From the sequence record OX638288: a stretch of DNA of 64,000 bases. The stretch is one strand, 5' to 3'. A program made the position numbers and the translations under genes. This document shows, piece after piece, positions 25,636-46,964 of this stretch. This DNA comes from Escherichia phage UP19. Each line of letters opens with the position of its first letter. The first letter of the stretch is position 1. Below the pieces are notes generated by a model, which was not told where the DNA came from, made no database searches, and was given only the letters and a program-made list of their open reading frames with translations.

Positions 25636-25637
25636 TT

Positions 25638-26226: not shown

Positions 26227-26254
26227 ATATGTAAGTTAAACTAAGGAGACAATC

Positions 26255-26422: not shown

Positions 26423-26452
26423 TCTAGTGTGTATAGCCATTTTATGGTTATT

Positions 26453-26480
26453 GGCCCTTCCGAAAGGTTGGGCCTTTTTT
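26453..26480. terminator. bidirectional terminator hairpin (GGCCC..GGGCC) + T6 between converging uvsY-side and uvsW-side transcripts
   Basis: GC stem-loop followed by TTTTTT on the plus strand and A/T-rich on the minus strand. Confidence 0.65.
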
Positions 26481-26483
26481 GTT

Positions 26484-26711
26484 TTAGAACTCTTCTTGCT
26501 CTTCGTCATCCATAGATTCCAATTCAGCTCGTTTACCTGCTAAGGCATCACGAACACTGATATCGTCCGAATCTCGAAGTTCAGCTTCTTTACTACGAGT
26601 TTTGTAATACTTTTCCAATTCCTTCAAACCGTCCATGGTTTGACAAGAACTAATTTTAGACATGAAGCTCTCGATAGAGGCTTCATAGATAACTTCTTTA
26701 AAGGACTTCAT
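26484..26711 (-). CDS. small helical protein, UvsW.1-like by position
   Basis: 75 aa, acidic C-terminus; sits where UvsW.1 follows uvsW in T4 but separated from uvsW by the HNH gene. Confidence 0.45.
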   Translation of the reverse strand: MKSFKEVIYEASIESFMSKISSCQTMDGLKELEKYYKTRSKEAELRDSDDISVRDALAGKRAELESMDDEEQEEF

Positions 26712-27403: not shown

Positions 27404-28896
27404 ATTTGGACCTCTTTCATTACGTAATTAAAACGTTCATCTGCGTAACGTTGAATACGTTCAAGACCATGTTTAAGAGCGTAGTTTAAATGAACATATT
27501 TCTTTTTAGCCATAGATGATTTAGGTTTCACACCCATATCATCAATAATATCAAATACCTGGGCTGTTGATTTGGAAGCATGCTTACGTAGTACACGACC
27601 TATGGTCTGAAGTACAATAATTTTTGATTTTACCGGATGAGCAAATACAACATGGTGAAGGTTCTTAACGGAAATACCAGTAGAGAACACACCGTAACTT
27701 GCCACAACAATAATACCCTTACCATTTTCCGCCATTACTTTCAGAGCATTACGCGTTTCGGTATTAACTTCACCTGATACGTAATAAACTTCTTTATGTT
27801 GCTCTTTAACCATTTCAAAAAGAGTTTTACCGTGTTCGATGTTTTTAAACATCAGGAATACATTCTCTTCTTTCTTAGCGAGTTTAACAGCTAAATTAGC
27901 AACCCATTTATTACGACGAGTAGCCTTAGTAATGACCTTTATTTCTGATTGATAATCTTTACCTTTCATCTTAACAGTGAATTCATCCGGATAACGAAGG
28001 AAAATACTGTTGATTTTAAGGTCTGTAACCTGTCCTTCTTCCATTAACTGCGAAGTGGATACCGGCTTAAACACATCACCAAACAAACCCATATATTGCA
28101 TTAAATTAGCTTTACCGTCTTTTAAAGAACCGGACAAACCGAATTTAAACATACAGTTGGTTAGGCCTTCGATGATGGTAGAAATTGATTTACCTGTCGC
28201 CAAATGGCATTCGTCATTCATAAACATACCAAACTGAGCAAACCATTCTTTAGGTTGTTTAATAGCCGTTTGATAAGTTGAAACATAAATCATTGCATCG
28301 GAATCACGTGCAGTACCTGAACGAATACCAAGCATAGCAGCTTTAGGGAACAAACGATAATCGATGAAGTCATTAATCATCTGGTCAACAAGGGCAGTAG
28401 TAGGAACTAAAATAAGGATTTTACCTTCATAGTTCTCAACATAATATCGACTCAGGAGCGCCTGAATCAATGATTTACCTGCGGATGTAGGTAAATTCAG
28501 AATTGCGCGACGTTTTGTCAGACCGTTGTATACGGCTTCATTCTGATACCAATGTGGCTCAATCTTGGTAGAACCCGAATAAATCTCTTGTGAGGCTACC
28601 CATGAGTCAAAATCTTCGCGAGAAATATCTTCCTGTTCAAGAATACGTGGGTCAATCCACAGAGAGTATTCAAACTGGTCAGCGAATTTTTTAATTTGTG
28701 GGACTAGACCATACGGAAGTTTACGGTTATAATCTAGAAGACGAATTCTCCCGTCCCATTGCCCGTACCGGTATTTAGGGTTAAATTTATATCCATCAGC
28801 TTCAAAGCTGAAATAGTCTCTGAGTTCGTAGAAGGTGGATTCATCACACTCAATACGAACATGACTAAAATTATCAAAATGTACTTGAATTTGCAT
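27400..28896 (-). CDS. uvsW: UvsW ATP-dependent DNA/RNA helicase
   Basis: 498 aa; N-terminus ..VHFDNFSHVRIECDESTFYELRDYFSFEADGYKFNP..; Walker A LPTSAGKS; DECH box. Confidence 0.95.
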   Translation of the reverse strand: MQIQVHFDNFSHVRIECDESTFYELRDYFSFEADGYKFNPKYRYGQWDGRIRLLDYNRKLPYGLVPQIKKFADQFEYSLWIDPRILEQEDISREDFDSWVASQEIYSGSTKIEPHWYQNEAVYNGLTKRRAILNLPTSAGKSLIQALLSRYYVENYEGKILILVPTTALVDQMINDFIDYRLFPKAAMLGIRSGTARDSDAMIYVSTYQTAIKQPKEWFAQFGMFMNDECHLATGKSISTIIEGLTNCMFKFGLSGSLKDGKANLMQYMGLFGDVFKPVSTSQLMEEGQVTDLKINSIFLRYPDEFTVKMKGKDYQSEIKVITKATRRNKWVANLAVKLAKKEENVFLMFKNIEHGKTLFEMVKEQHKEVYYVSGEVNTETRNALKVMAENGKGIIVVASYGVFSTGISVKNLHHVVFAHPVKSKIIVLQTIGRVLRKHASKSTAQVFDIIDDMGVKPKSSMAKKKYVHLNYALKHGLERIQRYADERFNYVMKEVQI

Positions 28897-28910
28897 GTCT
28901 AATTCTCAGT

Positions 28911-28932
28911 TATAAATATAACTATATTTATA
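28911..28932. promoter_or_regulatory. pair of face-to-face divergent late promoters: TATAAATA (plus, 28911-28918, for inh/hoc) and TATTTATA (minus-strand TATAAATA, 28925-28932, for uvsW)
   Basis: Both octamers exact; arranged so that the two 5' leaders would overlap. Confidence 0.6.
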
Positions 28933-28951
28933 CACCAACAAGAGACTAATT

Positions 28952-29623
28952 ATGGATACTCAATATATTGAAGAGCTTCGTGCACTCGAAGATAAAAAAG
29001 AAGCTAAAGCTAAGTTAATCGAATACGGCGAACAGTTCGGTTTAAAACTTAAGAAAACCCGTTCGTTTGATAATTTGGTTATCGATATCTCTGAAGGCCT
29101 TAAAGCCTTGGCTGATGAACCACATCCAGAAACCGAAGGTTTGTCTATTTCTGATTTGATTGATGCTGCCGACGAACTAACAGGCGCTAAAGAATTTGTT
29201 GATGGTGCTGAACCTGCCAAAGAAGAGGCTACCCTATTATTTGATGCCCCTGAAGCGGTAGTTGAAGTTATTGAGGTAGCCGAACTCCCTAAGGTAGAGA
29301 TTATTGAAGAAGATGTTCCTTTTGTCGAAGAGAAATTCAAAGAGGCTGTAGCCGAGGTTATTGAATCTGAAAAACCTGTATTCTCTTTGCCTGAAAACTT
29401 TAGTCCTAATCTTTTGCTTATTGGTAAAAACCCTGGTTACTGTACTGTTCCTTGGTGGATTTATCAATGGATTTCTGAAACCCCTGATTGGAAAGAACGT
29501 CCTAAAGATTTCCAACACCCTTCTGCCCACCAAACATTATTCAGTCTGATTTATTACATCAATCGTAATGGCTCAGTATTAGTACGTGAAACACGTAATT
29601 CATCTTTTGTAACTTTAAAATAA
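28952..29623 (+). CDS. inh: Inh-like protein (inhibitor of prohead protease) by position
   Basis: 223 aa; located immediately upstream of hoc as in T4; acidic Glu/Ala-rich middle. Confidence 0.5.
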   Translation: MDTQYIEELRALEDKKEAKAKLIEYGEQFGLKLKKTRSFDNLVIDISEGLKALADEPHPETEGLSISDLIDAADELTGAKEFVDGAEPAKEEATLLFDAPEAVVEVIEVAELPKVEIIEEDVPFVEEKFKEAVAEVIESEKPVFSLPENFSPNLLLIGKNPGYCTVPWWIYQWISETPDWKERPKDFQHPSAHQTLFSLIYYINRNGSVLVRETRNSSFVTLK

Positions 29624-29632
29624 GGGTAAACT

Positions 29633-30760
29633 ATGGCTTTTACTGTAAGTATAGCCGGCACAGCGTCTATTAAAATAGGCGAAAGTGCTAACTACACTGC
29701 TACCGCAACAGGTGCAGCTGTAGAAGGAACCATTACATATGTATGGTCTATTGATGGTGCTTCTAATCCAGAAGCAACCAATGTTTTGAAATATACAGGT
29801 GCTTCACCTGCAGGTAAGAAAGTTTTAAAAGTAGTAGCAACTTCTACTCCAGCTGAAGGCGAACCTGAGGTAGCTGAAGATACTTTTGAAGTTACCGTAG
29901 CTAATAAGACCATGTCTATTTCTTTGGCTTTGGACCCTATTTCTGTTTCTAAAGAAGTTGGCCAATCTCAAGTTGTTACTGCTAACGTGACGGGTGCACC
30001 TGCAGGTGCAACAATCGCTTATGTTTGGAAACGTAACACTAGCGTAATATCAGGTCAAACCGGTAAAACTATTACCATAACCGAAGCGGCGGAAGCAAAT
30101 TACACTTTGAACTGTGAAGTTACTGTTACCGCCCCTGAATATGACCCGGCTACCGCTACCAAAGGTGTTGCGGTAACTTTTGTTAAGAAAACTATGTCAG
30201 GTGTTTCTGTTACTTTAACGCCAACCTCTATTAATGTTCCTGAAGGAACTCCGGCTTCTTTTAAAGCTACCGTAGTCGGCGCACCTGCTGGTGCTACTTT
30301 TGCTTATTCTTGGAAGAAAGACGGTTCATCAGTCGCAGGTGCCACAGATACTTTAGTGGTTGATACTAGTGCTGAAGGTTCGCAGGTTATTGAAGTTTCT
30401 GTTGTTGTTTCGGCTACCAACTATAATCCTGTGACCGTCACAAAATCCGGTAATGTAACAATTACGGCTAAAGTCGCTCCTGAACCGGAAGGTGAACTAC
30501 CTTATGTACACCCACTTCCTGTTCGTAATTCAGCGTATATTTGGGCCGGCTGGTGGGTTATGGATGAAATCCAGAAAATGACCCTTGAAGGTAAAGACTG
30601 GAAAACTGATGACCCTGATAGCGATTATTATCTCCATCGCTATACTCTTCAAAAAATGGTTGCCGATTATCCAGAGGTTGATGTACAAGAATCACGTAAT
30701 GGAAGAATTATCCATCGCACCGCTTTAGAAGCTGGTATTATATACGATTACGTTTATTAA
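29633..30760 (+). CDS. hoc: Hoc outer capsid decoration protein (Ig-like domains)
   Basis: 375 aa (T4 Hoc is 376 aa); three repeated Ig-like modules (..YVWSIDG.. / ..YVWKRNT.. / ..YSWKKDG..); C-terminal ..ELPYVHPLP..WWVMDEIQKMT.. Confidence 0.9.
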   Translation: MAFTVSIAGTASIKIGESANYTATATGAAVEGTITYVWSIDGASNPEATNVLKYTGASPAGKKVLKVVATSTPAEGEPEVAEDTFEVTVANKTMSISLALDPISVSKEVGQSQVVTANVTGAPAGATIAYVWKRNTSVISGQTGKTITITEAAEANYTLNCEVTVTAPEYDPATATKGVAVTFVKKTMSGVSVTLTPTSINVPEGTPASFKATVVGAPAGATFAYSWKKDGSSVAGATDTLVVDTSAEGSQVIEVSVVVSATNYNPVTVTKSGNVTITAKVAPEPEGELPYVHPLPVRNSAYIWAGWWVMDEIQKMTLEGKDWKTDDPDSDYYLHRYTLQKMVADYPEVDVQESRNGRIIHRTALEAGIIYDYVY

Positions 30761-30764
30761 TTAA

Positions 30765-30784
30765 GGGCCGCAAGGCCCATTTTG
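30765..30784 (+). terminator. rho-independent terminator after hoc (GGGCC-GCAA-GGCCC + ATTTTG)
   Basis: 5-bp GC stem with GNRA-like loop and T-run. Confidence 0.65.
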
Positions 30785-30804
30785 CATTAAAGTACAAAAT
30801 TCCT

Positions 30805-30834
30805 GTTTACAAGTTAAAAATTCTATGTTAAGAT
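30805..30834 (+). promoter_or_regulatory. early-type promoter (GTTTAC 30805-30810; -10 about TAAGAT 30829-30834)
   Basis: GTTTACA -35 with A/T-rich -10 at 17-18 nt. Confidence 0.4.
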
Positions 30835-30863
30835 GGATTTACCAACTCAACTAGAGAATTGTT

Positions 30864-31073
30864 ATGGATAAGATTAAAGTACATTTTTTACACGAATCCG
30901 GGTTGAATTTTATAGAAATTGCTAAAAAAATGGGCGGGACCGCTAAAGACATGGCCAAAACATGGGTTGATGTGGAACAAGCCAAAGAGAAATTTAAAAC
31001 AAAAGAGAAAGTGGTATATCGTAAACGTCTAATCAATAAGGTTCGGCGCAAAGCGCGTTCTAGTTCAAAGTAA
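30864..31073 (+). CDS. hypothetical small basic protein (69 aa)
   Basis: ORF with Lys/Arg-rich C-terminus; between hoc and rnlB (24.2/24.3-like position). Confidence 0.45.
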   Translation: MDKIKVHFLHESGLNFIEIAKKMGGTAKDMAKTWVDVEQAKEKFKTKEKVVYRKRLINKVRRKARSSSK

Positions 31074-31075
31074 TA

Positions 31076-31101
31076 TGCTTTAAATTTACGTGTGTTATAA
31101 T
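31076..31101 (+). promoter_or_regulatory. candidate middle promoter for rnlB (MotA box TGCTTTA 31076-31082, -10 TATAAT 31096-31101)
   Basis: Consensus MotA box 13 nt upstream of consensus -10. Confidence 0.5.
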
Positions 31102-31187
31102 GGGTCTAGGTCCTTCCGTTAAACCATTTGGCTTGGTGACAGAAGATTACTAGCTCTTCTATTTAATTATATTTATTATGGTGATTT

Positions 31188-32195
31188 ATGTTCAAGAAAT
31201 ATAGCAGTCTCGAAAACCACTACAACAATAAGTTTATCGAAAAACTCCGTACCAATGGTTTGACTGGCGGTGAATGGGTAGCACGTGAGAAGATTCATGG
31301 AACCAACTTTAGTTTAATCATAGAACGTGACGCAGTCACATGCGCCAAGCGCACTGGCCCAATTCTCCCAGCCGAAGATTTCTTTGGTTATGAAATTGTT
31401 TTAAAGAATTATGCTGATTCCATTAAAGCAGTACAAGATATCATGGAAACTTCAGCTGCTGTATCTTATCAAGTTTTTGGTGAACTAGCCGGGCCTGGCA
31501 TTCAGAAGAATGTTGATTATGGTGATAAAGATTTTTATGTATTTGACATTATTGTTACCACAGAAAGTGGCGATGTGACTTATGTCGATGATTATATGTT
31601 GGAATCATTCTGTAAGACATTTCGATTTAAAGTTGCCCCACTTTTAGGCCGTGGTAAATTTGAAGACCTTATTAAATTGCCAAATGATTTAGATTCTGTC
31701 GTCCAAGATTATAATTTTATGGTAGATAATGTTGGGCTAATCGAAGCTAACGCTCATGTGTGGAATGCCGAAGCAAAAGGCGAAGTATTTACCGCTGAAG
31801 GGTACGTATTAAAACCCTGTTATCCACTCTGGCTCCCTAATGGAAATCGTGTAGCGATTAAATGTAAGAACTCTAAATTCAGTGAGAAGAAAAAATCTGA
31901 TAAGCCTATTAAAGTTGCAGTGGTTTTATCCCAAGATGATATGGATTTGATGTGGCAATTCACTGATTATGTGACTGTTAACCGTATTAACAACGTTATC
32001 AGTAAGATTGGTGAAGTATCTAAAAAGGATTTTGGAAAGGTAATGGGACTGACAGTCCAAGATATTTTGGAAGAAGCAGCCCGTGAAGAATTAGAATTAA
32101 CCGATGCAGAAAATCCTGTTGAAGTTAAAAAGCAGCTCGTTGAGTGTGTAAAAGATACCTTAAGAGCCGTATGGATTGAACTAGTATCCAAATAA
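31188..32195 (+). CDS. rnlB: RNA ligase 2 (gp24.1)
   Basis: 335 aa; ..[17 protein letters not shown].. (motif I KxHG), matching T4 Rnl2. Confidence 0.9.
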
Positions 32196-32200
32196 ACAAT

Positions 32201-32229
32201 AAAGGGACCTTACGGTCCCTTTTATTTTT
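32201..32229. terminator. bidirectional terminator (AAAGGGACC-TTAC-GGTCCCTTT + T-run) between converging rnlB and gene-24 paralog
   Basis: 9-bp stem with flanking A-run and T-run. Confidence 0.8.
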
Positions 32230-33502
32230 CTAGTGGTGGAAGTTTAACACCAAGATAAGAACTCAACTGGCTTTGGTTAGCCATTTTGTCCATATCAGAG
32301 CCATCAATAATGCGGGCTTCTTTATAGTCCTTAGCGACGGTATAAGGGTTTGCAGTCAATGCATAACGAGCAAGCAATGCTACTGTAGGTTGTAAGCTTT
32401 CCGGGTCAACAATAACCTTAAATTCACCTACTGAAGTATCCCCTTCCTCATCAACCTCATTCAAACCTTCCGTATAAGGCGCATAATATAAAGATGCGAC
32501 TGTCTGTCCTTCACCCATCTGAGCATTTACACCAACAATAACATAATCACATGGACTATTCATATCAGCATAAAGAGGCAGACCATTCTTTAATACACCA
32601 TAAGCCAGTTCGTCCTGGTCTTCCTTTTTCTCAACCCAACCAGAAGCGGCGAGAATAGCAGCACAACGAGAACTAGCTACTGCATAAGTCCCGGCGAAAG
32701 AAGTTTGACGTTGGACGGCAGAGTTCATCTCACACATGTAATAATATAATGTACGAGCACGGTCCTGGGCATTATCGTAACGTGGGTTGGTAAGGTCTAA
32801 TACACCCTTTTCAGAAACACCCTGGACTTTAAAACGAGAACTCACCGTAATTAATGACTGCAATACGTCCTTATTAATTTCTTCTGCCATTTGAATGCCT
32901 AGCAGATTTTCAACGAAATTAGGAGCATTAAACCCATTTGATTCTAGGTCTTGGGCCAATTCGACTGTCAAAGAAGTTTTCAGTTTACGTGATTTAACCT
33001 CAGATTGCCATTTATCAATACGGAAGCCTGCTTCAGCAATTTCAGGGTGACCTTGTTCAAATTTAGAAGTAATAGCAGCATCTGATACCATACGAATATG
33101 CCCAGCGGCCACTGCTTCAGAAATAACTTCACCGAGGTCGGTTTCTGTGGTTCCGGCGAAAGGAGATGCTTCTAGAACTTTAAACACTACACTTTCAAAT
33201 TGGAACATATCGCCGGCTGCATAAGCTGTAGACGAATCGGTAAATTCAGGAATATTTTCACGTTCCGACATACCAATCTGGCCTGCAAATGTAGCGCCAC
33301 CAAGATAAGTCATTTTGTCGTCGGGATTAAGTACACGAATCCCGTACAGAGCGGCAACAGGTTGGCTTGTTTTTTGTTCAGCAACTAGGGCTTTAAAGAT
33401 TCGTTTATTAGTTGCTTGGGTGTATGAAAGAAGAGCAGGACGGCCAACCGAGTTGGCAGCCGTCAATGTGGATTCTTTAATTAGGTCTATAATCTTAGAC
33501 AT
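32222..33502 (-). CDS. head vertex protein paralog (second gp24-like gene)
   Basis: 426 aa; alignable end to end with adjacent gp24 (shared blocks RKLKT.LTVELAQD.ESNGF.AP.F.E.LL...MA.EINKDVLQSLITVS; YAPYTEGL; VIVDP.SLQP). Confidence 0.8.
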   Translation of the reverse strand: MSKIIDLIKESTLTAANSVGRPALLSYTQATNKRIFKALVAEQKTSQPVAALYGIRVLNPDDKMTYLGGATFAGQIGMSERENIPEFTDSSTAYAAGDMFQFESVVFKVLEASPFAGTTETDLGEVISEAVAAGHIRMVSDAAITSKFEQGHPEIAEAGFRIDKWQSEVKSRKLKTSLTVELAQDLESNGFNAPNFVENLLGIQMAEEINKDVLQSLITVSSRFKVQGVSEKGVLDLTNPRYDNAQDRARTLYYYMCEMNSAVQRQTSFAGTYAVASSRCAAILAASGWVEKKEDQDELAYGVLKNGLPLYADMNSPCDYVIVGVNAQMGEGQTVASLYYAPYTEGLNEVDEEGDTSVGEFKVIVDPESLQPTVALLARYALTANPYTVAKDYKEARIIDGSDMDKMANQSQLSSYLGVKLPPLEK

Positions 33503-34785
33503 TAATCAGCCTCGTAAATAATTGCTGGAAGTTTAACACCAAGCAGATAAGACATATTGCTCTGACCAGCCATTAAATCCATATTGGTTGCATCGATAAC
33601 ACGAGCTTCTTTATCGTCTTTAGCTACGGTGTACGGGTTAGCGGACAGTGCATAACGAACCATCAGAGAAATAGAAGGCTGTAATGAATCAGGGTCGACA
33701 ATAACCTTATAAGCACCAACGTGTTCTTGGTCATCTAAATCCAGGCCTTCTGTGTATGGGGCATAGAAAATAGAACCGACAACTTCATTACCTCCATAGT
33801 TCTCTTTAACACCTACGATAACATAATCCAATGGGCTGTTAACGTCACAGAACAGAGGTAATCCATTCAACAAATAACCATAGGCAGTTTCTGGGAGCCA
33901 ATTATTATCTTCAGGTTTATGTTTTAACCAGCCAGAACCTGCAAGCATTGCAGCCACACGACTTGAAGCCACAACAAACGTGCCGGAATAAGAAGTAGTT
34001 TTCTGGATTTCAGAATTCATCTCACAAACAATTTCATAAAGTTTACGTGCGGATTCCGGAGCACTGGCATAAGTCAAATCGATGATGCCATTATCAGATA
34101 CACCAGTAACTTTATAGCGTTTAGATACGGTTATTAGAGATTGCAGAACGTCTTTATTAATTTCATCTGCCATTACTGTAGCCAGGAGGTCTTCTAAGAA
34201 TGCAGGGGCGTCGAAGCCATTTGATTCCATATCCTGTGCCAATTCTACGGTCAAAGCAGTCTTCAATTTACGGGTCTTAACAGGAGCATTCCATTTATTA
34301 ACCTGGAATACGGCGTCAGAGATTTCTACATCACTCGCTTCGAATTTAGTGGTATGAGCAGCGTCCGGAACCAGACGACATGTTAATGACACCAAACCTT
34401 CTTGAAGAGCATCAGCCAATCCTGTAGCGCTAGTAGATGCGAGTGGGCTTGCTTGAAGAGCCTTATAAACCACATTCTGATACTTAAAGTAGTCACCCTT
34501 GGCAATAGCCTGGGCTTTATCTGTGAGTTCCTGGATAGTTTCACGGTCTTTAGAACCAACTTCACCACCATAAACAGCACCAGTTTGGAAACTGAATTCA
34601 TTATCAGGGGTAAGATATTTGACACCATACAATGCAGCAATAGGCTGACTAGTACGTTGTTCAGCGATGATATCGCGATAAATTAGTTTAGTGGTAGCAC
34701 GGGTCAAAGCAACAAGATTAGGGCGACCCAATGAGTTGCTGGTAGTAGTTGTTGACTCGCGCAGTAATTCGTTAATCTTTGCCAT
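33502..34785 (-). CDS. 24: head vertex protein gp24
   Basis: 427 aa (T4 gp24 is 427 aa); N-terminus MAKINELLRESTTT..; gene order 23-segD-24. Confidence 0.9.
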   Translation of the reverse strand: MAKINELLRESTTTTSNSLGRPNLVALTRATTKLIYRDIIAEQRTSQPIAALYGVKYLTPDNEFSFQTGAVYGGEVGSKDRETIQELTDKAQAIAKGDYFKYQNVVYKALQASPLASTSATGLADALQEGLVSLTCRLVPDAAHTTKFEASDVEISDAVFQVNKWNAPVKTRKLKTALTVELAQDMESNGFDAPAFLEDLLATVMADEINKDVLQSLITVSKRYKVTGVSDNGIIDLTYASAPESARKLYEIVCEMNSEIQKTTSYSGTFVVASSRVAAMLAGSGWLKHKPEDNNWLPETAYGYLLNGLPLFCDVNSPLDYVIVGVKENYGGNEVVGSIFYAPYTEGLDLDDQEHVGAYKVIVDPDSLQPSISLMVRYALSANPYTVAKDDKEARVIDATNMDLMAGQSNMSYLLGVKLPAIIYEAD

Positions 34786-34813
34786 TGCGCTTTCCTTATT
34801 GAGGGTATATGTT

Positions 34814-34821
34814 TATTTATA
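34814..34821 (-). promoter_or_regulatory. late promoter TATAAATA (minus strand) for gene 24
   Basis: Plus-strand TATTTATA 29 nt upstream of gene 24 ATG. Confidence 0.6.
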
Positions 34822-34827
34822 AAAGTT

Positions 34828-34860
34828 GTTTACAGCAAGGTTCCCACGTGTTACTATAGT
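34828..34860 (+). promoter_or_regulatory. T4-type early promoter (GTTTAC 34828-34833, TACTATAGT 34852-34860)
   Basis: Same architecture and leader (..AAAACATGAGGAG..ATG) as cassettes at 2113, 5863 and 18019. Confidence 0.5.
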
Positions 34861-34886
34861 CCTATCAAAACATGAGGAGATTAAAA

Positions 34887-35156
34887 ATGGACAAGTTAAA
34901 CTTTATTCGTACTACTCTTTCAGCTCTTGATAAAGACATCAAAGCCTTGGTAGAAAAATATGGTTCCAATCCTAATGGTAATGCAGTGAACGCGTTAGTT
35001 AAGAAATACGAAACCATGGCTTATGCTACTGACTTCTGGTGGAATGGTGAATACTCTACCCATACCAAAGACAAATCCGGTAACTGGCTGAAAATCCAAG
35101 AAAATCGTATTGACTTCCGTGATATCATCAACCGCCGGGTCAAAGTAGAGGCCTAA
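34887..35156 (+). CDS. hypothetical protein (89 aa)
   Basis: ATG 34887 with SD GAGGAG; immediately upstream of the GIY-YIG gene. Confidence 0.5.
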   Translation: MDKLNFIRTTLSALDKDIKALVEKYGSNPNGNAVNALVKKYETMAYATDFWWNGEYSTHTKDKSGNWLKIQENRIDFRDIINRRVKVEA

Positions 35157-35159
35157 AAT

Positions 35160-35819
35160 ATGAATTATTTAATTTATAAAATAACTAATCTCATTAATAA
35201 CAAGATTTATGTTGGAGCCCATGCAACCGTAGATATCAACGATTCTTATATGGGCTCCGGGGTTAACGTAGTAAAATCCATAAAGAAATACGGATTGGAG
35301 AATTTTAAAAAGGAAATCCTTTTCAATTTCGAAACATCTGAAGAGATGTATGCTAAAGAAGCCGAACTAGTTGATGAGGCTTTTGTCATGAGAACAGATA
35401 CCTATAATGCGGCCATAGGCGGTAAGGGTAATCCTGTTATAGTAGCTTTACAGGAACCTGGGTATCGTGAGATGTTATCCAAAAAGACTAAGGCCGGTAT
35501 GACTGAAGAAGTTCGGGCCAAAATATCTAAAAAGAAATTAGGTTCTAAAGAATCTAAAGAACATCGAGAAAACAAATCTATAGCAAATAAAAAGTTTTAT
35601 AAAAATAGAGATTCTCATCTTAAAGGTAGAAAACTATCAGAAGAGCATAAAGCAAAAATTAGAAAGAATTCTAATAAAGGTAAGAAATTTGTATTTGTGG
35701 ATATTTCTATTAAAGGTCATGAATTTAACCACTACGATTACGCTGCCGAATTCTTTAACGTATCCGCAAAAACTATAAGAAATTGGATTAATGAACGCGA
35801 TGATTGTTTTAAGCTATAG
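35160..35819 (+). CDS. segD: GIY-YIG homing endonuclease (SegD-like)
   Basis: 219 aa; N-terminal GIY-YIG module ..YLIYKITNLINNKIYVGA..; C-terminal NUMOD3-like repeats (..TEEVRAKISKK.. / ..SEEHKAKIRKNS..); between genes 23 and 24 as T4 segD. Confidence 0.85.
   Translation: MNYLIYKITNLINNKIYVGAHATVDINDSYMGSGVNVVKSIKKYGLENFKKEILFNFETSEEMYAKEAELVDEAFVMRTDTYNAAIGGKGNPVIVALQEPGYREMLSKKTKAGMTEEVRAKISKKKLGSKESKEHRENKSIANKKFYKNRDSHLKGRKLSEEHKAKIRKNSNKGKKFVFVDISIKGHEFNHYDYAAEFFNVSAKTIRNWINERDDCFKL
35160..35819 (+). mobile_element. segD: free-standing GIY-YIG homing endonuclease gene between genes 23 and 24
   Basis: Same ORF as above; opposite orientation to flanking late genes. Confidence 0.7.
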
Positions 35820-35829
35820 AAACAAGAAT

Positions 35830-35847
35830 GGGAGACCGGAGTCTCCC
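35830..35847. terminator. terminator hairpin GGGAGAC-CGGA-GTCTCCC after gene 23 (minus) and segD (plus)
   Basis: 7-bp stem; T-rich flank on the minus strand. Confidence 0.6.
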
Positions 35848-35876
35848 ATAAGGTTATGTATTTTAACGTTAAAGCA

Positions 35877-37436
35877 TTAAATTCCTTTAACGTAGACGCG
35901 TCTAAAGTAACCATTCAGACCAAGGCTATTAACAATGTCCGGCATGCCGTTCTGAATGCGCTTGGTCGGAGCCTGAGCAGCAGGGTCAGCAAACGGGTTA
36001 ATACCGATACCGTAACGAGTTTTGAAGCCCATTACCGGCTGGAAGTTCTTCGGATCGGAACCGCGCAGTGGGGTCAGTGCAACGTAAGGAGCGTAGTAGA
36101 TACCTGCGTCCATTTCGTTGGAACCTTTATAACCGATAGTGAAGTAATCAGCACGGGCATACTGGTCGATGTAAACGCGATATTTACCACCAAGAACACC
36201 GGCAAATACTGCTTTAGTGGTGTCAACGTTGAAACCTTGACCCAGACCCTGAGCGGCATAACTTACAGAAGTATCAACTGCAGCCAGTACGTTAACTACG
36301 TTACGGGAAGCGATGATGAAGTTACCAGCACCACGACCGGTCTGACGAGCGATTTCGGCTGCTTCTTTATCAATCTGGAACAGAAGGGCTTTAAAGCTCT
36401 CACCGGCCCAACGAGCACCACGGATATCAATCGGGTCCTGGAAGTCAAACACACCAGCTTTAGCGCCAACGGTGTTGGTCATACCGGATTTACCAACCTG
36501 TGCAGAGTAGTTAATCCAATCGATAACTTCACGGTTGATTTCCAGCATAATTTCGGTAGCCAGAATACCACTCAATTCAGCATCTGCATCCATACCGTGT
36601 ACTGCACGAAGGTCCTGTGCCAGTTCGATGGAGTAGCTTGCTTTCAGCTGACGGGATTTAGCTTCGATAACTTGTTTATCGATACGGAAGCCCATTTCGT
36701 TCCACGGGTTATCAGTAGAACCGTTGAAGCCTTCCTGAAGTTCAGCGATAGAAGTAGCCATACCTTCAGCCAATTCAGCCAGCTGACCAGCTTCTAACAG
36801 AGCGGTTACGGCAACATCCAGTTTAGCGGCATCGGTAGCAGCGGCATCAACGGTTACGGCTTCAACAGCCTGGAAGTGTGCAGAACCGGTAGCTTCGAAG
36901 AAGTGAGAATAAATTTTACCAACTTCCAGAACTTTACCTGCAGCCAGTGCTTCAAAAGTCTGAGCAGCACCCTGACCAGAGAACATAGCATTCGGAGCAT
37001 ACATCGGGTGGAAAGCTTCTTTAGCACCAGCAGCGATAGGGTCTTTACCGTATACTGCACGCAGTGCAAATACCTGGCCGGTAGGGTTATTCAGAGGCTG
37101 AACACCACAAATATCAAAAGCAATCAGATGAGGAATAGCACGACGAACCATACCCATTACTGCCGGCCCAATCTGAGTTACAGCACCAGAGGTCTGGCCA
37201 GCTGCGATATTGGTAGCATCATAACCGTGGTCACCACCGATTTCAGCTTCAGTCAGGAAAGAACCAAATGCTTCGGAGATTTTTTCGTCACGATATTCAG
37301 GAGCGGTCAGAATATCTTGTTCCTGGTTTTCAAAGATTTTAGCGATGATAGCTTGTTTAGAAGCACCAACGATTTCAGGAAGAGCTTCGTTTTCCAGCAG
37401 AGCGGACCATTTTTGAACTAATGCATTCTTTTTCAT
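35877..37436 (-). CDS. 23: major capsid protein gp23
   Basis: 519 aa (T4 gp23 is 521 aa); gene order 22-23-segD-24. Confidence 0.95.
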   Translation of the reverse strand: MKKNALVQKWSALLENEALPEIVGASKQAIIAKIFENQEQDILTAPEYRDEKISEAFGSFLTEAEIGGDHGYDATNIAAGQTSGAVTQIGPAVMGMVRRAIPHLIAFDICGVQPLNNPTGQVFALRAVYGKDPIAAGAKEAFHPMYAPNAMFSGQGAAQTFEALAAGKVLEVGKIYSHFFEATGSAHFQAVEAVTVDAAATDAAKLDVAVTALLEAGQLAELAEGMATSIAELQEGFNGSTDNPWNEMGFRIDKQVIEAKSRQLKASYSIELAQDLRAVHGMDADAELSGILATEIMLEINREVIDWINYSAQVGKSGMTNTVGAKAGVFDFQDPIDIRGARWAGESFKALLFQIDKEAAEIARQTGRGAGNFIIASRNVVNVLAAVDTSVSYAAQGLGQGFNVDTTKAVFAGVLGGKYRVYIDQYARADYFTIGYKGSNEMDAGIYYAPYVALTPLRGSDPKNFQPVMGFKTRYGIGINPFADPAAQAPTKRIQNGMPDIVNSLGLNGYFRRVYVKGI

Positions 37437-37457
37437 GTGTTGTATAACCTTATTAAA

Positions 37458-38273
37458 TTAAGAAATTCGTGATGCTGCGATTGCAGACAGGTCCGCGAAG
37501 GACAGGGTAGGCTTAGCGCCTTTTTCTTCAACTGCTTCCGAAATATAATTCAGTGCTGCAGCATCGTCTTCAGTTTTATTTATAGCGGCTTCGGTGATTG
37601 GTTTTTCAACGTCAGTCTGGCCTTTAACCATTTCAACGATAGCGCCAATTTTTTTACCAAATGCATCGGAATAATCCATGCCTTCTACCAGAGAACTAAC
37701 TTTTTCTTTCTGAGATTCAGTCAGGTCTTTAGTTGCTTCCATAACAGCTTGTTCACGCTGTACGTAATTAATATATGCGTCACGCTTGCCAACTTCTTCG
37801 AACAAACGAGCGGTTTCGGCTTTCTGTTCAGCCAATTCTTCTTCCATTTCAGAAACAACGTCTACTGCTTCTTCTGGAACAACCACGTTATGTTCAACAA
37901 ACAGTTCTTTCATACCCATCAACATGGATTCGAACAGTTCGGCTTTAATACCTTTATCAACAGCCAGCTGGTTTTCAGCCATCCATTCTTTAGCGACGTG
38001 GTCAAGGAAACGACCAGCAGCTTCTTGGATTTTCTTATCAGCTTTTTCTTCAGCTTCTTCTTTATTTTTCTCAACTTCTTCTTCCGCTTTTTCAGCGATT
38101 TTAGCGATGTGAGATTCCGCCAGTTTAACGGCGTGTTGCTTGACGGTAGCTTCGAATACAGTGCCGAAAGTTTCTTTTGCTTCCGGAGAAATATTAACTG
38201 ATTCGAAAATACTGTCAAGAGCAACGGAAGCATCAATATTCTGTGCTTCGGCGATCAGTTGTTCTTTAAGCAT
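37458..38273 (-). CDS. 22: prohead core scaffold protein gp22
   Basis: 271 aa (T4 gp22 is 269 aa); highly charged, Glu/Lys/Ala-rich helical protein. Confidence 0.9.
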   Translation of the reverse strand: MLKEQLIAEAQNIDASVALDSIFESVNISPEAKETFGTVFEATVKQHAVKLAESHIAKIAEKAEEEVEKNKEEAEEKADKKIQEAAGRFLDHVAKEWMAENQLAVDKGIKAELFESMLMGMKELFVEHNVVVPEEAVDVVSEMEEELAEQKAETARLFEEVGKRDAYINYVQREQAVMEATKDLTESQKEKVSSLVEGMDYSDAFGKKIGAIVEMVKGQTDVEKPITEAAINKTEDDAAALNYISEAVEEKGAKPTLSFADLSAIAASRIS

Positions 38274-38300
38274 TTTGTAGTCCTGTTGTTTAGATAATAA

Positions 38301-38308
38301 TATTTATA
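38301..38308 (-). promoter_or_regulatory. late promoter TATAAATA (minus strand) for gene 22, overlapping gene 21 stop
   Basis: Plus-strand TATTTATA 28 nt upstream of gene 22 ATG. Confidence 0.6.
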
Positions 38309-38939
38309 ACGCTTTTTTCATGGCCTCTGCGAGAGCCATAAAGGCGTCATCGGCACTGGTATCGGTATCTACCGTTTGTGATTCTGTAATTTGTTTAGGA
38401 GTTACATAAGCATCAGGAGCAGATGGACCCCATACTGCATCAACACCGACGGTTAATTTATAACCTTCGTTTACACGCTTATATCCTTTATTGGTTTCGG
38501 TTAAAGAACCTAGACCACGAGAACTAACACCAGGCACCCAACCGGCTCTAATATTAGCAGCTAGTTTATCACCAGGACCATGGTCGCCTTCAATAATACG
38601 AGCACGTCCATAAACGTCATTACCTTTCCACCACATATCTTCAATAATAATAGCGGCTTGCATAGGGTCGACGTTAGCGCGAGGCGGATGATTTAATTCT
38701 CCTAAAGCTTGTTTAGTAGCAACCTGTTCTGCCATATAATCAGCAACAGCTTTTTCCAAAATAGGTTTTGGATAAAGGCGTTTATTACGGTTAACCACTT
38801 CGGCTTGCATGAATATGCCTTCTATATAAAGGCCCGGGGCAAGTCCAGAATCTTTTCCATCATGAGATTCCAACATCGGAACCCCATCGATAATTTCACC
38901 TGGTTGTCCCCAATGTTCGATGAGCAATTCAGGTTTCAT
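38304..38939 (-). CDS. 21: prohead core protease gp21
   Basis: 211 aa (T4 gp21 is 212 aa); gene order. Confidence 0.9.
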   Translation of the reverse strand: MKPELLIEHWGQPGEIIDGVPMLESHDGKDSGLAPGLYIEGIFMQAEVVNRNKRLYPKPILEKAVADYMAEQVATKQALGELNHPPRANVDPMQAAIIIEDMWWKGNDVYGRARIIEGDHGPGDKLAANIRAGWVPGVSSRGLGSLTETNKGYKRVNEGYKLTVGVDAVWGPSAPDAYVTPKQITESQTVDTDTSADDAFMALAEAMKKAL

Positions 38940-39367
38940 TAGTTAAGTCCAAAGGCTTTACGTTTAGAACGAGCTTTCTTACGCTTACGTTCGGCACGTA
39001 CTTGAATAGATGGATTAGCACGTTTGGTTTTAGATGCTTTGCGAGCAATCTGACGGCGTTTTGCTTTAGACAACCCGGTCGTTTGATAAGCGTTGCGTTG
39101 ACGGGTTTTAATATCTTTAGTACGAGTAAGCTCACCTTTAGAAGAGACGTGCTTAACGATAAATTCGTTAAGAGCCATATTTTCATTCAAAGAGGCGATG
39201 GCAATAGCTGTATCGATATCGCCATCAGCAATCATGTTCTCTACAAGATTATTTATATCGCTTTTCTCGAGGGCTTCAGAAAGAGTAGCAAAACGTCCCT
39301 GTGCTTCTGGAATTTTGGCCTCTACGCTTTCTAGAGTTAATTCGTAATCATCAGGGATAAGGAACAT
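38939..39367 (-). CDS. 68: prohead core protein gp68
   Basis: 142 aa (T4 gp68 is 141 aa); gene order. Confidence 0.8.
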
Positions 39368-39642
39368 TATTCGTCGTCCTCGTCGTCTTCATCATCGTCA
39401 TCACCTTCATCCGCATCGTCAGATTCTTTTTTGTCTTTCTTATCTGCTTTATCGGATTTTTCGTCTTTATCTTCGTCTTCGTCATCTTCGTCGGCTTCTT
39501 CGCCTTCAATCATAACGGAGCGAGCAATTTCTGCTTTACGGGCTTCAATCAAAGCGGCTACTCGAGATTCGATAAGCGGGGCTGCTGCTTTACGAACTGC
39601 TACGAGGTCGTTTGATTTAATAGCTTCGATTAAATCTTCCAT
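39367..39642 (-). CDS. 67: prohead core protein gp67 with poly-acidic C-terminal tail
   Basis: 91 aa; position between genes 20 and 68; C-terminal 40 aa almost entirely Asp/Glu/Lys. Confidence 0.75.
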
Positions 39643-41216
39643 TAGAAATCCTCTTCTTCATCATCTGGGTTTTGGAAACGAGCCTCTTTAGACTCTTCTT
39701 CAATTTGCTTAGCTTCTTGATTAATTTCTTCGTCAGTCATCTGAAGGAAATCTTTCATAGCCGTTTGATGCGAAATATACTTACCAATAAATGGTTCAGC
39801 CATCGTTAGCATATTGATTCTGCGTTCCATGATTTCCGCATCTTTCATTTCACTGAAATAGCTATCACGGTTGAACGTAACTTTAATATTATTTATTTCT
39901 CTTTCCCACTCATCTTCTGTAATAATCTTTTTAAGAATGAGGTTTGTTTTTAATGGGTCTAAGAAAATTTCTTCAAATTTATTTTGGAGCTGTCGAATCC
40001 ATTTAGCAAATTTCAACTCATCACGAGTTATAGCCGTACCAGCATCAAACATAACACCGGAATTAGATTCACTAGGGATACGTGACTCCGGGATACGCAG
40101 CGCACGATAAAGTGCTGTGCGGAAATAAAGAACGTCATCCATATCACTCATACCTGTGGCACCAGGCATGGTATCAACTTCTGTTACCGCTTTACCGTCT
40201 CGACGTTGCAACCAATAGTCTTCAGTCATCGACATATTATGTTGCTGGTTTTTAATTTTACCGGTCGAAGCATCATATACCACACGGTTTTTCATCGTGT
40301 TCATGATATGTTGCATTTGTGCCGCAGCCTTACGAGAAGGCATATTTCCTGTATCGATATAAAATACACGACGGTCAGGAGCACGGGTAATACGATAGAT
40401 GACCATTGCATCTTCCATCAATTTAAGCTGGTTTGCAGGCTTAATAGCACGTTGCAAATAGCCAATGATGTTTTTACCACAGCAATCCAATAACCCAGAA
40501 TGTGCATAAACTACAGCAGCACGAGGAATTTTAACTTTAGTCCCAGCTGAATAAATGCGTCCATCAGCACAATAACTTTCATGACCAGTATCGTAAACGA
40601 AAAACTCGCGGTACCCATCTACAATTTTAACACCATCTTCCATACGTGTAACAATTTCACGAATGTATTGGACTTGGCGCGGGTCTAAGCGTCGAAGCTC
40701 TTGTACGCCATCTTTCATTTTTTTAGGGTTTATAATTTTATGAAAGAATATTCTCGAGTCTACATACCAACGTTGGAAATGGTCAGTGCCTTTACGTTGG
40801 AAATTTAAAAGATTCAAAACTTCACTAAATTCAGCCAAAATTTTATCTTTAATTGATTGACTGAACTCCGTCCCGTCTAAATTTAATGCAACTACTTCTT
40901 TATCATCCTCGTAGACAATAGCGTCAGACACAATTTCTTGAACTGCGTTATCGACTTCATAGTTGTTCATCAAATTACGGTAGGTATCAATGAGTTCCCT
41001 GGTGTTTTTAACTTCAGGCTCATTACTACCAAACATTTGTTGCATAAGAGCGTTATAAGGAATATTTTGCTCTTGGGTTTCAATTTCGCGAGCGCCATCA
41101 TCAAGCTTAGGTGCAGTGACAGACTCTAAATTGTTATTAATTTGTTGTTTATATTCTTTTTCGTCTTCATTAGCCCATGGCTTAAGAAAACTTAATATTG
41201 TATTAAAGTTTGCCAT
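39642..41216 (-). CDS. 20: portal vertex protein gp20
   Basis: 524 aa (T4 gp20 is 524 aa); gene order. Confidence 0.95.
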
Positions 41217-41264
41217 TAGAGTCTCCGATGAATGGGATAAGGAGCCGAAGCTCCTTTATAATTC

Positions 41265-41272
41265 TATTTATA
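41265..41272 (-). promoter_or_regulatory. late promoter TATAAATA (minus strand) for gene 20, followed by a 5'-UTR hairpin (41239-41256)
   Basis: Plus-strand TATTTATA directly after gene 19 stop; hairpin AAGGAGC-CGAA-GCTCCTT lies in the leader. Confidence 0.55.
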
Positions 41273-41273
41273 C

Positions 41274-41765
41274 TCATTCCCACCAATCGATAGCGAACGT
41301 AGATTCGAAAGTTTCTACCTCGTTGTTTGAATCCCAATCCATCTGGACTTCACCAACGTTAGTAGGCCATAAGCCATAAATTGTAACTTCTTTAGTCACA
41401 GTCTTACCGTCACGATGGAACTGACGAACAACTGCTTGTTTCTTATATTCTGCAGGTGCTGCACCTGTAATTTCATTGGTCATACCATGGCAGAGGTTTT
41501 GCCAATCGACAATTGCCTGACGGGTGTCATGGGCATCATCGTTGTAAATGGTAATGGTCCAATCATCAAACGTACGGTCGCCAGCTACGTTAATTTTACG
41601 GTTCATGTAGCCAACCGGTACTTTTTCTACAATGCCTGCCGGCATAGGTGCTGCTTTACATTTAAAGCTAAAGTTTTTACCAAGAAATGGAATTTCCACT
41701 TCGAAAAGGTTAGGGCGTGCAAAGTCACCTGACTCAAACGCACGAGTGATATCTGTCAACTCCAT
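41274..41765 (-). CDS. 19: tail tube protein gp19
   Basis: 163 aa from ATG 41765 with SD GAGG (T4 gp19 is 163 aa); ..DITRAFESGDFARPNLFEVEI.. Confidence 0.9.
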   Translation of the reverse strand: MELTDITRAFESGDFARPNLFEVEIPFLGKNFSFKCKAAPMPAGIVEKVPVGYMNRKINVAGDRTFDDWTITIYNDDAHDTRQAIVDWQNLCHGMTNEITGAAPAEYKKQAVVRQFHRDGKTVTKEVTIYGLWPTNVGEVQMDWDSNNEVETFESTFAIDWWE

Positions 41766-41783
41766 GGGAGGCCTCATAAGTCA

Positions 41784-41825
41784 GTTCCTGGCCACACCAG
41801 GAACGTTCTGATTAATTTATTTATA
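41784..41825 (-). promoter_or_regulatory. late promoter TATAAATA (minus strand, plus coordinates 41818-41825) followed by 5'-UTR hairpin GTTCCTGG-CCACA-CCAGGAAC (41784-41804) upstream of gene 19
   Basis: Exact octamer; perfect 8-bp stem directly downstream in transcript orientation. Confidence 0.55.
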
Positions 41826-41972
41826 ACAGTTGATAAATCATATTCCTGATAGTTAATCACTCCCAGGCGCAATTCTACGTGATATACGCTGTAACCAAAC
41901 ACATGGTATAATGGTTTTAGGTTCTTTATATTACAGCCTGGGATAATAGATTATACTAATAATATAATTTAT

Positions 41973-42614: not shown

Positions 42615-42642
42615 TATATTATAAAGCTTAGAGCAAGTAAAC

Positions 42643-44625: not shown

Positions 44626-44654
44626 TTTGAATCCTCTTGGTTATGCTTTATTGT

Positions 44655-46964
<2,310 letters not shown>

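What the first reader, a model, noticed from the sequence alone, without database searches (positions are those of the whole stretch)
34786..35876. SegD-like GIY-YIG endonuclease module with its own promoter, companion ORF and terminator embedded in the late head operon
Between minus-strand genes 24 and 23 lies a plus-strand unit: early promoter (34828), an 89-aa ORF, a GIY-YIG/NUMOD3 endonuclease, and a terminator hairpin (35830-35847) that also ends gene 23. The gene 24 late promoter (34814-34821) is squeezed next to the cassette promoter. The arrangement looks like a self-contained mobile module.
Basis: partly seen in the sequence, partly recalled or inferred. Interest (0 to 1): 0.35.

Follow-up and report, generated by a model that had tools for sequence, protein, structure and literature searches.

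The report
Homing endonuclease gene between capsid genes
This is an ordinary, already catalogued selfish endonuclease gene (segD) of T4-like phages that sits behind a small resident early gene between two capsid genes; the promoter, the small gene and the terminator around it are not part of the mobile piece.

Summary
On the + strand between minus-strand genes 24a and 23 lie a T4-early-type promoter (34828-34857), an 89-aa ORF (34887-35156) and a 219-aa SegD-like GIY-YIG endonuclease (35160-35819). A hairpin (35828-35849) and a TATAAATA late promoter (34821..34814, minus strand) complete the set.

The interpretation as one self-contained mobile module fails its own refutation test. Relatives show all four states:
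- neither gene (T2);
- promoter + ORF89 only (JS10, JS98, QL01, MX01 and others);
- promoter + segD only (T4);
- both (window, IME08, many Mosigvirus).

The indel against empty alleles is about 661 nt, essentially the segD ORF alone, placed between the ORF89 stop codon and the hairpin. The hairpin is the gene 23 terminator and is present even in T2.

The window's segD is a mosaic. Its 3' half is 100% identical to Mosigvirus alleles, while its 5' half differs from them at about a quarter of synonymous sites (dS 0.28). This indicates recent exchange between genera.

The arrangement is annotated in about 36 public phage records and corresponds to T4 segD. It is already known and of low interest.

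The parts
33502..34785 (-). Gene 24a (head vertex protein), left neighbour. It is JS10-like, 95-100% nucleotide identity.
   Evidence: (Pfam Gp23, E 2.6e-98).
34814..34821 (-). T4-type late promoter TATAAATA for gene 24a, 29 nt upstream of its ATG. It is resident and present in every allele, including T2.
   Evidence: 16 matches against 7.8 expected; this site listed; conserved in IME08, JS10, KAW3E185, W143, T4, T2.
34828..34857 (+). Early-type sigma-70 promoter: GTTTACA, 17-nt spacer, TGnTACTAT. It is resident and serves ORF89. It probably also drives segD by read-through.
   Evidence: only match in the region. (pattern 5 times on the + strand against 0.2 expected); hexamers and spacing are kept while the spacer sequence varies; homologous site in T4; absent in T2.
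34887..35156 (+). ORF89, a small conserved early gene of unknown function (phrog_6003, JS98 gp173 family), with a GAGGAG Shine-Dalgarno at 34875-34880. It is resident, not part of the segD insert.
   Evidence: phrog_6003, E 3.8e-49; 119 phage records; dN/dS 0.04-0.17; alpha-alpha-beta hairpin-alpha model, pLDDT 74; no informative fold match.
35148..35151 (+). GAGG 8 nt upstream of the segD ATG, created by a 3-nt insertion in the last codons of ORF89 (KVEA* instead of KAA*). It is a possible Shine-Dalgarno for segD.
   Evidence: Read directly. The same KVEA ending is found in metagenome loci L017-L023. In L017-L020 a full 223-aa segD follows; in the short contigs L021-L023 only a gene cut by the contig end follows, not checked against SegD.
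35157..35817 (+). The stretch absent from empty alleles (JS10, JS98, QL01, MX01). It is about 661 nt: a 3-nt spacer plus the segD ORF.
   Evidence: Homology to empty sites ends at the ORF89 stop codon and resumes at AGAAACAAGAATGGGAGACC.
35160..35819 (+). segD: a free-standing GIY-YIG homing-endonuclease gene of 219 aa. It has an N-terminal catalytic domain, a basic NUMOD3-like linker and a C-terminal helix-turn-helix.
   Evidence: TIGR01453 above cut-off; 59% identity to T4 SegD, 98% to Mosigvirus alleles; dN/dS 0.02-0.27.
35496..35910 (.). Tract 100% identical to Mosigvirus segD+ phages. It covers the 3' half of segD, the hairpin, the spacer and the last 34 nt of gene 23. Its left edge coincides with SegD residue 113. 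Only about 35496-35850 is diagnostic, because segD-less Dhakavirus MX01 shares the right-hand 95 nt with 2 differences.
   Evidence: (mobillu, BEU50 and NRG-P0074 at 100%; 30 records at >=99%).
35828..35849 (-). Hairpin AUGGGAGAC-UCCG-GUCUCCCAU followed by UCUUGUUUCU on the minus strand. It is the intrinsic terminator of gene 23, resident and ancestral. It may also stop + strand transcripts but lacks a U-tract on that side.
   Evidence: Equivalent hairpins occur in JS10 and MX01, T4 and T2.
35877..37436 (-). Gene 23 (major capsid protein), right neighbour.
   Evidence: (Pfam Gp23, E 2.7e-122).

Best explanation
The window comes from a Dhakavirus, a JS98/JS10/IME08-like T4-type coliphage. Its 23-24 intergenic region holds three things.

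1. Two resident signals of the late head genes: the TATAAATA late promoter of gene 24a and the intrinsic terminator hairpin of gene 23.
2. A resident small early gene, ORF89, with its own T4-early-type promoter. It is transcribed antisense to the capsid genes.
3. A free-standing GIY-YIG homing-endonuclease gene, segD, orthologous to T4 segD. It is inserted alone, as about 661 nt, between the ORF89 stop codon and the hairpin.

segD brings no promoter or terminator of its own. It is inferred to be expressed as the second cistron of the ORF89 early transcript. The gap between the cistrons is 3 nt, and in this phage a GAGG lies 8 nt upstream of the segD ATG.

Its spread is inferred to follow the usual Seg mechanism. 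In mixed infections the enzyme cuts a segD-less allele near this locus, and recombinational repair copies segD and adjacent markers into it. The patchy distribution across three genera at one exact site fits this.

The window's allele is a recombinant. Its catalytic half is diverged, while its DNA-binding half is identical to the allele circulating in Mosigvirus.

Shown here: the anatomy, the independent presence or absence of the parts, the insert boundaries, the mosaic pattern, and purifying selection on both ORFs.

Inferred only: co-transcription, endonuclease activity, the target site, and whether SegD cleavage drove the exchange.
For: - Identity of the phage: JS10 95.5% over 20 kb.
- Anatomy.
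- SegD homology.
- Same position and antisense orientation as T4 segD.
- Empty-site alleles with the promoter, ORF89 and hairpin intact.
- T4 state (promoter + segD, no ORF89). T2 state (neither).
- Record counts of 119, 36, 53 and about 450.
- Incongruence: SegD is 97.7-98.2% identical to Mosigvirus proteins, whose gp23 and gp24 are only 83% and 71% identical. It is 87% identical to SegD of IME08, whose gp23 is 98.5% identical.
- The 415-nt identical tract. Against KAW3E185, synonymous divergence is 0.28 in SegD codons 1-112 and 0 in codons 113-219.
- Both ORFs are under purifying selection. PP01's copy is frameshifted, as expected for the gain and decay cycle of a homing endonuclease gene.
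Against: - No experiment here shows transcription, cleavage or homing.
- The + strand side of the hairpin has no U-tract, so where the early transcript ends is unknown.
- The left edge of the identical tract lies inside segD. That event was therefore recombination between two segD-bearing genomes, or with an unsampled mosaic donor. It was not a simple homing into an empty site.
- The right-hand flank type also occurs in segD-less Dhakavirus MX01. Co-conversion into gene 23 is therefore not demonstrated.
[quoted passage not shown] Only the title was seen here, in a reference list; the paper is not held.
- IME08 and Mosigvirus alleles lack the GAGG upstream of segD, so translation signals are weak in most carriers.
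Confidence: 0.8

Rival explanations
1. Promoter, ORF89, segD and terminator form one self-contained mobile cassette that is gained and lost as a unit, with ORF89 as a functional companion of the endonuclease.
For: All four parts are contiguous on one strand. T2 lacks the promoter, ORF89 and segD together. About 36 records carry ORF89 and segD side by side.
Against: ORF89 with the promoter and hairpin occurs without segD in roughly 83 records (119 minus 36), seen directly. segD occurs with the promoter but without ORF89 in T4-type phages. The hairpin is present in T2 with nothing else. The indel boundaries enclose only segD. An ORF89 homologue sits in an unrelated Acinetobacter phage with no endonuclease nearby.
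Confidence: 0.04
2. SegD here no longer homes. It would be a retained or domesticated site-specific nuclease, for example one acting against co-infecting phages or without mobility. The mosaic would then come from ordinary homologous recombination between co-infecting T4-like phages, unrelated to SegD cleavage.
For: The title of the T4 SegD study states that the enzyme does not initiate homing. The recombination breakpoint lies inside segD, at a stretch conserved among all alleles. The whole region is a fine-scale patchwork: ORF89 is IME08-like, gene 24a is JS10-like and the gene 23 end is MX01-like. Strong purifying selection is compatible with a function useful to the phage.
Against: The gene is patchily distributed at one precise site in three genera. 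It shows decay in PP01. Near-identical alleles are shared by phages whose flanking genes are 70-85% identical. This is the classical signature of an active or recently active homing element.
Confidence: 0.2
3. The main role of the + strand unit is regulatory. Early transcription from the 34828 promoter runs antisense into gene 23, because the hairpin lacks a + strand U-tract, and dampens premature capsid gene expression. ORF89 and segD would be passengers.
For: The promoter class is strongly over-represented and strand-specific. The promoter is conserved across genera. The hairpin scores as a terminator only on the minus strand.
Against: T2-type phages, about 450 records, do without the promoter altogether. 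ORF89 and SegD are both under purifying selection as proteins. The hairpin is stable on either strand and may still pause or stop transcription.
Confidence: 0.05

Closest known systems
Phage T4 segD, a free-standing GIY-YIG endonuclease gene between genes 23 and 24
   Same: The proteins are orthologous: 59% identity overall, with a far more conserved N-terminal catalytic half. Both lie in the same intergenic region, antisense to genes 23 and 24. Both sit behind a homologous sigma-70-like promoter next to the gene 24 late promoter and in front of the gene 23 terminator hairpin.
   Different: T4 has no ORF89; segD follows the promoter and 5' leader directly. The C-terminal DNA-binding half is strongly diverged, dN about 0.57, so target specificity may differ.
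segD alleles annotated in Dhakavirus IME08 and IME341 and in Mosigvirus phages (KAW3E185, NRG-P0074, mobillu, F2, JK45 and others)
   Same: The arrangement is identical: promoter, ORF89, 3-nt gap, segD, hairpin. The Mosigvirus proteins are 97.7-98.2% identical and the IME08 protein 87% identical.
   Different: The window combines a Dhakavirus backbone with the Mosigvirus-type 3' half of segD. No database record has this combination; the best full-length match is 90.2%. The window also has a 3-nt insertion that creates GAGG upstream of segD.
Other T4 Seg homing endonucleases (SegA, B, C, E, F, G)
   Same: These are free-standing GIY-YIG genes placed between conserved genes. They are variably present among T-even phages and spread by double-strand-break repair with co-conversion of flanking markers (review; SegG reference).
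   Different: In T4 those genes lie in the same orientation as their neighbours and use middle or late promoters. This one is antisense to its neighbours and sits behind an early-type promoter. Homing has not been shown for SegD.
I-TevI and the TIGR01453 group I intron GIY-YIG endonucleases
   Same: The domain plan matches: an N-terminal GIY-YIG catalytic domain, a flexible basic linker and a C-terminal helix-turn-helix. TIGR01453 matches above its cut-off across residues 5-214.
   Different: The gene is not inside an intron. No match to any solved structure was found by sequence.

Membership tests
Seg-type free-standing GIY-YIG homing endonuclease (T4 SegD orthologue) | GIY-YIG catalytic domain at the N-terminus | tested here: met
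   TIGR01453 scores 59.0 bits against a cut-off of 56.05 and phrog_314 gives E 9e-53. The N-terminal 112 residues are highly conserved with T4 SegD, including the IYKIT, YVG, YMGSG, E67 and YNA motifs. Pfam GIY-YIG and SegE_GIY-YIG match only below their gathering scores.
Seg-type free-standing GIY-YIG homing endonuclease (T4 SegD orthologue) | Full-length homology to T4 SegD, in the same locus and orientation | tested here: met
   59% identity over the full length. The gene lies between genes 23 and 24 on the opposite strand, as in T4.
Seg-type free-standing GIY-YIG homing endonuclease (T4 SegD orthologue) | Free-standing ORF, not in an intron or intein, variably present among close relatives at a precise site | tested here: met
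   An indel of about 661 nt separates the window from JS10, JS98, QL01 and MX01, with clean boundaries.
Seg-type free-standing GIY-YIG homing endonuclease (T4 SegD orthologue) | Site-specific double-strand cleavage of the endonuclease-lacking allele | not testable with these tools
   This needs protein expression and cleavage mapping on JS10-type and MX01-type empty sites.
Seg-type free-standing GIY-YIG homing endonuclease (T4 SegD orthologue) | Nuclease-dependent, non-reciprocal transfer (homing) with co-conversion of flanks | tested here: inconclusive
   The allele is shared across genera, with a 415-nt identical tract. However, the left breakpoint lies inside segD, and the right flank type also exists in segD-less MX01. 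T4 SegD is reported not to home (title only).
Self-contained mobile cassette (promoter + ORF89 + segD + terminator) | All parts co-vary in presence and absence among relatives | tested here: not met
   All four combinations exist: neither (T2), ORF89 only (JS10 and others), segD only (T4), and both.
Self-contained mobile cassette (promoter + ORF89 + segD + terminator) | Indel boundaries enclose the promoter and the terminator | tested here: not met
   The boundaries lie at the ORF89 stop codon and just upstream of the hairpin. The hairpin is present in T2.
T4-type early (sigma-70) promoter | GTTTAC-type -35 element, 17-nt spacer and extended -10 element; conserved elements with a variable spacer sequence | tested here: met
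   (5 matches against 0.2 expected, all on the + strand). The transcription start itself was not tested.
Intrinsic (factor-independent) terminator | G+C-rich hairpin directly followed by a U-tract | tested here: met
   This is met on the minus strand, for gene 23. It is not met on the + strand, where no T-run follows the stem. 'Bidirectional terminator' is therefore unproven.
T4 late promoter | TATAAATA upstream of a late gene | tested here: met
   The motif lies at 34821..34814 on the minus strand, 29 nt upstream of the gene 24a ATG. It is enriched in the window and conserved in all alleles.

The most novel reading that the evidence does not exclude
The window's SegD may be a natural domain-swap chimera. 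Recombination at the junction between the conserved catalytic half and the divergent DNA-binding half (codon 113) would have grafted the Mosigvirus-type recognition module onto a Dhakavirus-resident catalytic module. If so, the allelic types of the C-terminal half would be a shuffling set of specificity modules. Four such types were seen: Mosigvirus, IME08, the metagenome L017 type and T4. The alternative forms of the hairpin, spacer and gene 23 3' end would then be their sensitive and resistant target variants. Those forms differ only by an indel and by synonymous changes.
Probability: 0.2. Interest if true: 0.4.

Novelty: already known. Interest (0 to 1): 0.12.

Why it matters
It matters little beyond correct annotation. 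The result shows which bases are the selfish element (segD alone) and which are resident: the ORF89 early gene with its promoter, the gene 24 late promoter and the gene 23 terminator. It adds one more example of a homing endonuclease gene marking a recombination breakpoint next to an essential capsid gene.

Two modest points could interest T4 specialists. First, segD here, and apparently in T4, sits behind a conserved sigma-70-type promoter, although a 2010 review reported none for T4 segD. Second, segD alleles exchange their DNA-binding halves between genera.

Tried and rejected
- ORF89 function. Pfam gave nothing and NCBIfam gave only noise. PHROGs gave only an unknown-function family. The two large protein searches found a handful of close homologues.
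- Multi-stretch hits of ORF89 to 1633-aa and 772-aa repeat proteins (P0009, P0012) look like summed weak matches to 'DESGNW'-like repeats. I rejected them as homology.
- The AlphaFold model of ORF89 (pLDDT 74) matched nothing informative in BFVD or PDB, only its own Acinetobacter-phage homologue.
- An RBS-sequestering RNA hairpin at the segD start, as known for several T4 endonuclease genes, was not found. Folds were no better than shuffles in the window, IME08 and T4.
- A PDB sequence search for SegD gave only a chance hit to ribosomal protein L5.
- IMG/VR yielded only 7 loci for ORF89. One has the length I recall for the JS98 genome (170,523 bp) and is 97% identical over ORF89, so I take it that the window is not JS98.
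- I first read the 415-nt identical tract as co-conversion from a Mosigvirus donor reaching 34 nt into gene 23. I withdrew the directional and gene 23 parts after finding that segD-less Dhakavirus MX01 carries the same right flank.
- The experimental T4 SegD paper (Sokolov et al. 2018) is not held, so its cleavage-site data could not be used.
- No other SegD paralogue exists in the 64-kb window.

Full report
**What the window is.** Megablast of 25000-45000 finds Dhakavirus phages as the closest relatives: JS10 at 95.5%, then Esco_phi_B-01, dhabil, dhaeg and IME08. The locus is the T4-type head gene block. Gene 23 is at 35877-37436 (-). Two tandem gene 24 paralogues lie at 33502-34785 and 32222-33502 (-). 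All three match Pfam Gp23.

- An 89-aa ORF lies at 34887-35156, preceded by GAGGAG. A 219-aa ORF at 35160-35819 follows after a 3-nt gap.
- TTTACA-17-TACTAT with an extended-10 TG at 34829-34857 is the only sigma-70-like site in 34300-36300.
- That generic scan is not enriched over shuffles. The stricter T4-early-like pattern GTTTAC-N14-16-TGnTAnnnT, however, occurs five times in the window, always on the + strand, against 0.2 expected.
- TATAAATA lies on the minus strand at 34821..34814, 29 nt upstream of the gene 24a start codon and 6 nt from the early promoter. The motif is twice as frequent as expected in the window.
- The hairpin at 35828-35849 is stable on both strands. It is followed by a U-tract only on the gene 23 strand.
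- The 219-aa protein passes the TIGR01453 cut-off and matches the PHROG homing-endonuclease family 314. It is 59% identical to T4 SegD over its whole length.
- Pfam GIY-YIG, SegE_GIY-YIG, NUMOD3 and HTH matches are all below threshold.

**Testing the 'self-contained module' idea.** That comparison is decisive.

- IME08, IME341, vB_EcoM_005, the Mosigvirus phages KAW3E185 and NRG-P0074, and the metagenome contigs L017-L020 have the same promoter-ORF89-segD-hairpin arrangement.
- JS10, JS98, VR5, IME281, QL01, VR25 and MX01 have the promoter, ORF89 and the hairpin but no segD. W143, a Tequatrovirus, likewise has the promoter and ORF89 without segD.
- T4 and PP01 have the homologous promoter and 5' leader joined directly to segD, with no ORF89.
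- T2 has an 83-nt spacer holding only the late promoter and the hairpin, with no sigma-70-like site.
- By record counts, ORF89 occurs in 119 phage records and ORF89 + segD in 36. T4-type segD without ORF89 occurs in 53, and roughly 450 Tequatrovirus records have neither. Records include GenBank/RefSeq duplicates and are not independent lineages.

ORF89 and segD therefore assort independently, which is the stated refutation criterion. Alignment with the empty alleles places the indel between the ORF89 stop codon and AGAAACAAGAATGGGAGACC. It is about 661 nt, essentially the segD ORF alone. The hairpin belongs to gene 23. The early promoter belongs to whichever + strand ORF is first.

**ORF89.** It is a real gene.

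- dN/dS is 0.04-0.17 against five relatives, and its length of 88-90 aa is kept down to 33-38% identity.
- It belongs to phrog_6003, of unknown function.
- An Acinetobacter Vequintavirinae phage has a homologue among small hypothetical genes, with no endonuclease next to it.
- A moderate-confidence model (pLDDT 74) gives helix-helix-beta hairpin-helix with no informative fold match.

Its function remains open. Nothing links it to SegD except adjacency.

**Evidence that segD moves.**

- The window's SegD is 97.7-98.2% identical to Mosigvirus proteins, whose gp23 and gp24 are only 83% and 71% identical to the window's. It is 87% identical to the SegD of IME08, whose gp23 is 98.5% identical.
- At the DNA level the window is JS10-like through gene 24a. 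It is IME08/JS98-like in ORF89. It is about equally distant from all alleles in segD codons 1-112.
- From 35496 to 35910 it is identical to mobillu, BEU50 and NRG-P0074.
- Against KAW3E185, synonymous divergence is 0.28 in the first half of segD and 0 in the second.
- The left breakpoint falls at the border between the conserved catalytic half and the divergent DNA-binding half.

I first took the right end, which lies 34 nt inside gene 23, as co-conversion from a Mosigvirus donor. However, segD-less Dhakavirus MX01 has the same hairpin, spacer and gene 23 end with only two differences. The window's gp23 C-terminus is also Dhakavirus-type in protein. Only about 35496-35850 is therefore diagnostic of exchange between genera, and its direction is not established. 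All differences between this flank type and the JS10 type within gene 23 are synonymous.

**How it most likely works.**

- segD has no promoter of its own. It lies 3 nt after ORF89, so it is most simply expressed from the ORF89 early transcript. This is an inference.
- In this phage and in the metagenome relatives L017-L023, a 3-nt insertion in the last codons of ORF89 creates GAGG 8 nt upstream of the segD ATG.
- IME08 and Mosigvirus alleles lack the GAGG, so translation may depend on coupling or be kept low.
- No RBS-sequestering hairpin is predicted.
- Both halves of SegD are under purifying selection, so the protein is maintained. PP01's copy is frameshifted, which is typical decay for a homing endonuclease gene.
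- By analogy with SegA, B, C, E, F and G (review), the enzyme would cut a segD-less allele nearby and be copied in by recombinational repair.
- The caveat is that the one experimental study of T4 SegD, by its title, reports no homing (paper not held).

**Comparison with what is known.** T4 segD is listed as a free-standing GIY-YIG gene between 23 and 24. It is uniquely antisense to its neighbours, and no promoter was identified for it. The window's gene is its orthologue in the same place. The same ORF89-segD arrangement is already deposited and annotated for IME08 ('SegD homing endonuclease') and for many Mosigvirus genomes. The feature is therefore already known. The only new detail is this particular recombinant allele in a Dhakavirus backbone. 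Interest is low.

Noticed in passing
L014 (T4, NC_000866) 794-822; window 34828-34857: T4 has a good sigma-70-like site immediately upstream of segD: TTTACA-17-TATTAT, 10 of 12 matches, with TG. It is positionally homologous to the ORF89 promoter of the window. A 2010 review states that no segD-specific promoter could be identified in T4. This is a consensus match only.
   Followed up: partly
window 32222-33502 and 33502-34785: Two tandem gene 24 (vertex protein) paralogues, 56% identical to each other, with overlapping stop and start codons. The pair is also annotated as 24a/24b in JS10 and IME08. Mosigvirus and Tequatrovirus relatives have a single gene 24.
   Followed up: partly
window 2113-2141, 5863-5892, 18019-18048, 30805-30834, 34828-34857: There are five matches to GTTTAC-N14-16-TGnTAnnnT, all on the + strand, against 0.2 expected. 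They are probably the early promoters of this segment. The sites at 18019 and 30805 lie at the edges of minus-strand late gene blocks, like the one studied here.
   Followed up: no
L004 (PP01) 2501-3162: PP01's segD is split into two reading frames. tblastn returns two overlapping pieces and the annotated CDS is truncated to 158 aa. This is a decaying copy of the T4-type allele.
   Followed up: partly
L009 (vB_EcoM_005) about 4993-5148; equivalent to window about 36000-36150: In this record gp23 aligns in two overlapping pieces, and about 130 nt near the 3' part of gene 23 are missing relative to the window. Its gene 24 is also only 68% identical. This could be a deletion, a recombinant or an assembly problem next to segD.
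   Followed up: no
L013 (W143, Tequatrovirus) 1652-2071: This Tequatrovirus has T4-like genes 23 and 24 but carries the Dhakavirus-type early promoter and ORF89 (97% identical) without segD. The switch in similarity is right at the gene 24 start codon. Promoter + ORF89 can therefore be exchanged between genera on their own.
   Followed up: partly
L016 (Acinetobacter phage ABPH49, Vequintavirinae) 2501-2767: An ORF89 homologue (38% identity, 88 aa) lies in an unrelated phage subfamily, within a run of small same-strand hypothetical genes. The family is not restricted to T4-like phages.
   Followed up: no
window 35850-35862 and relatives: At least three spacer types lie between the gene 23 hairpin and the gene 23 stop codon. 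JS10, JS98 and QL01 have a short spacer. The window, Mosigvirus and MX01 have a 12-nt GGTTATGTATTT insertion. IME08 and vB_EcoM_005 have a different insertion of about 13 nt. Whether these correlate with SegD sensitivity is unknown.
   Followed up: partly
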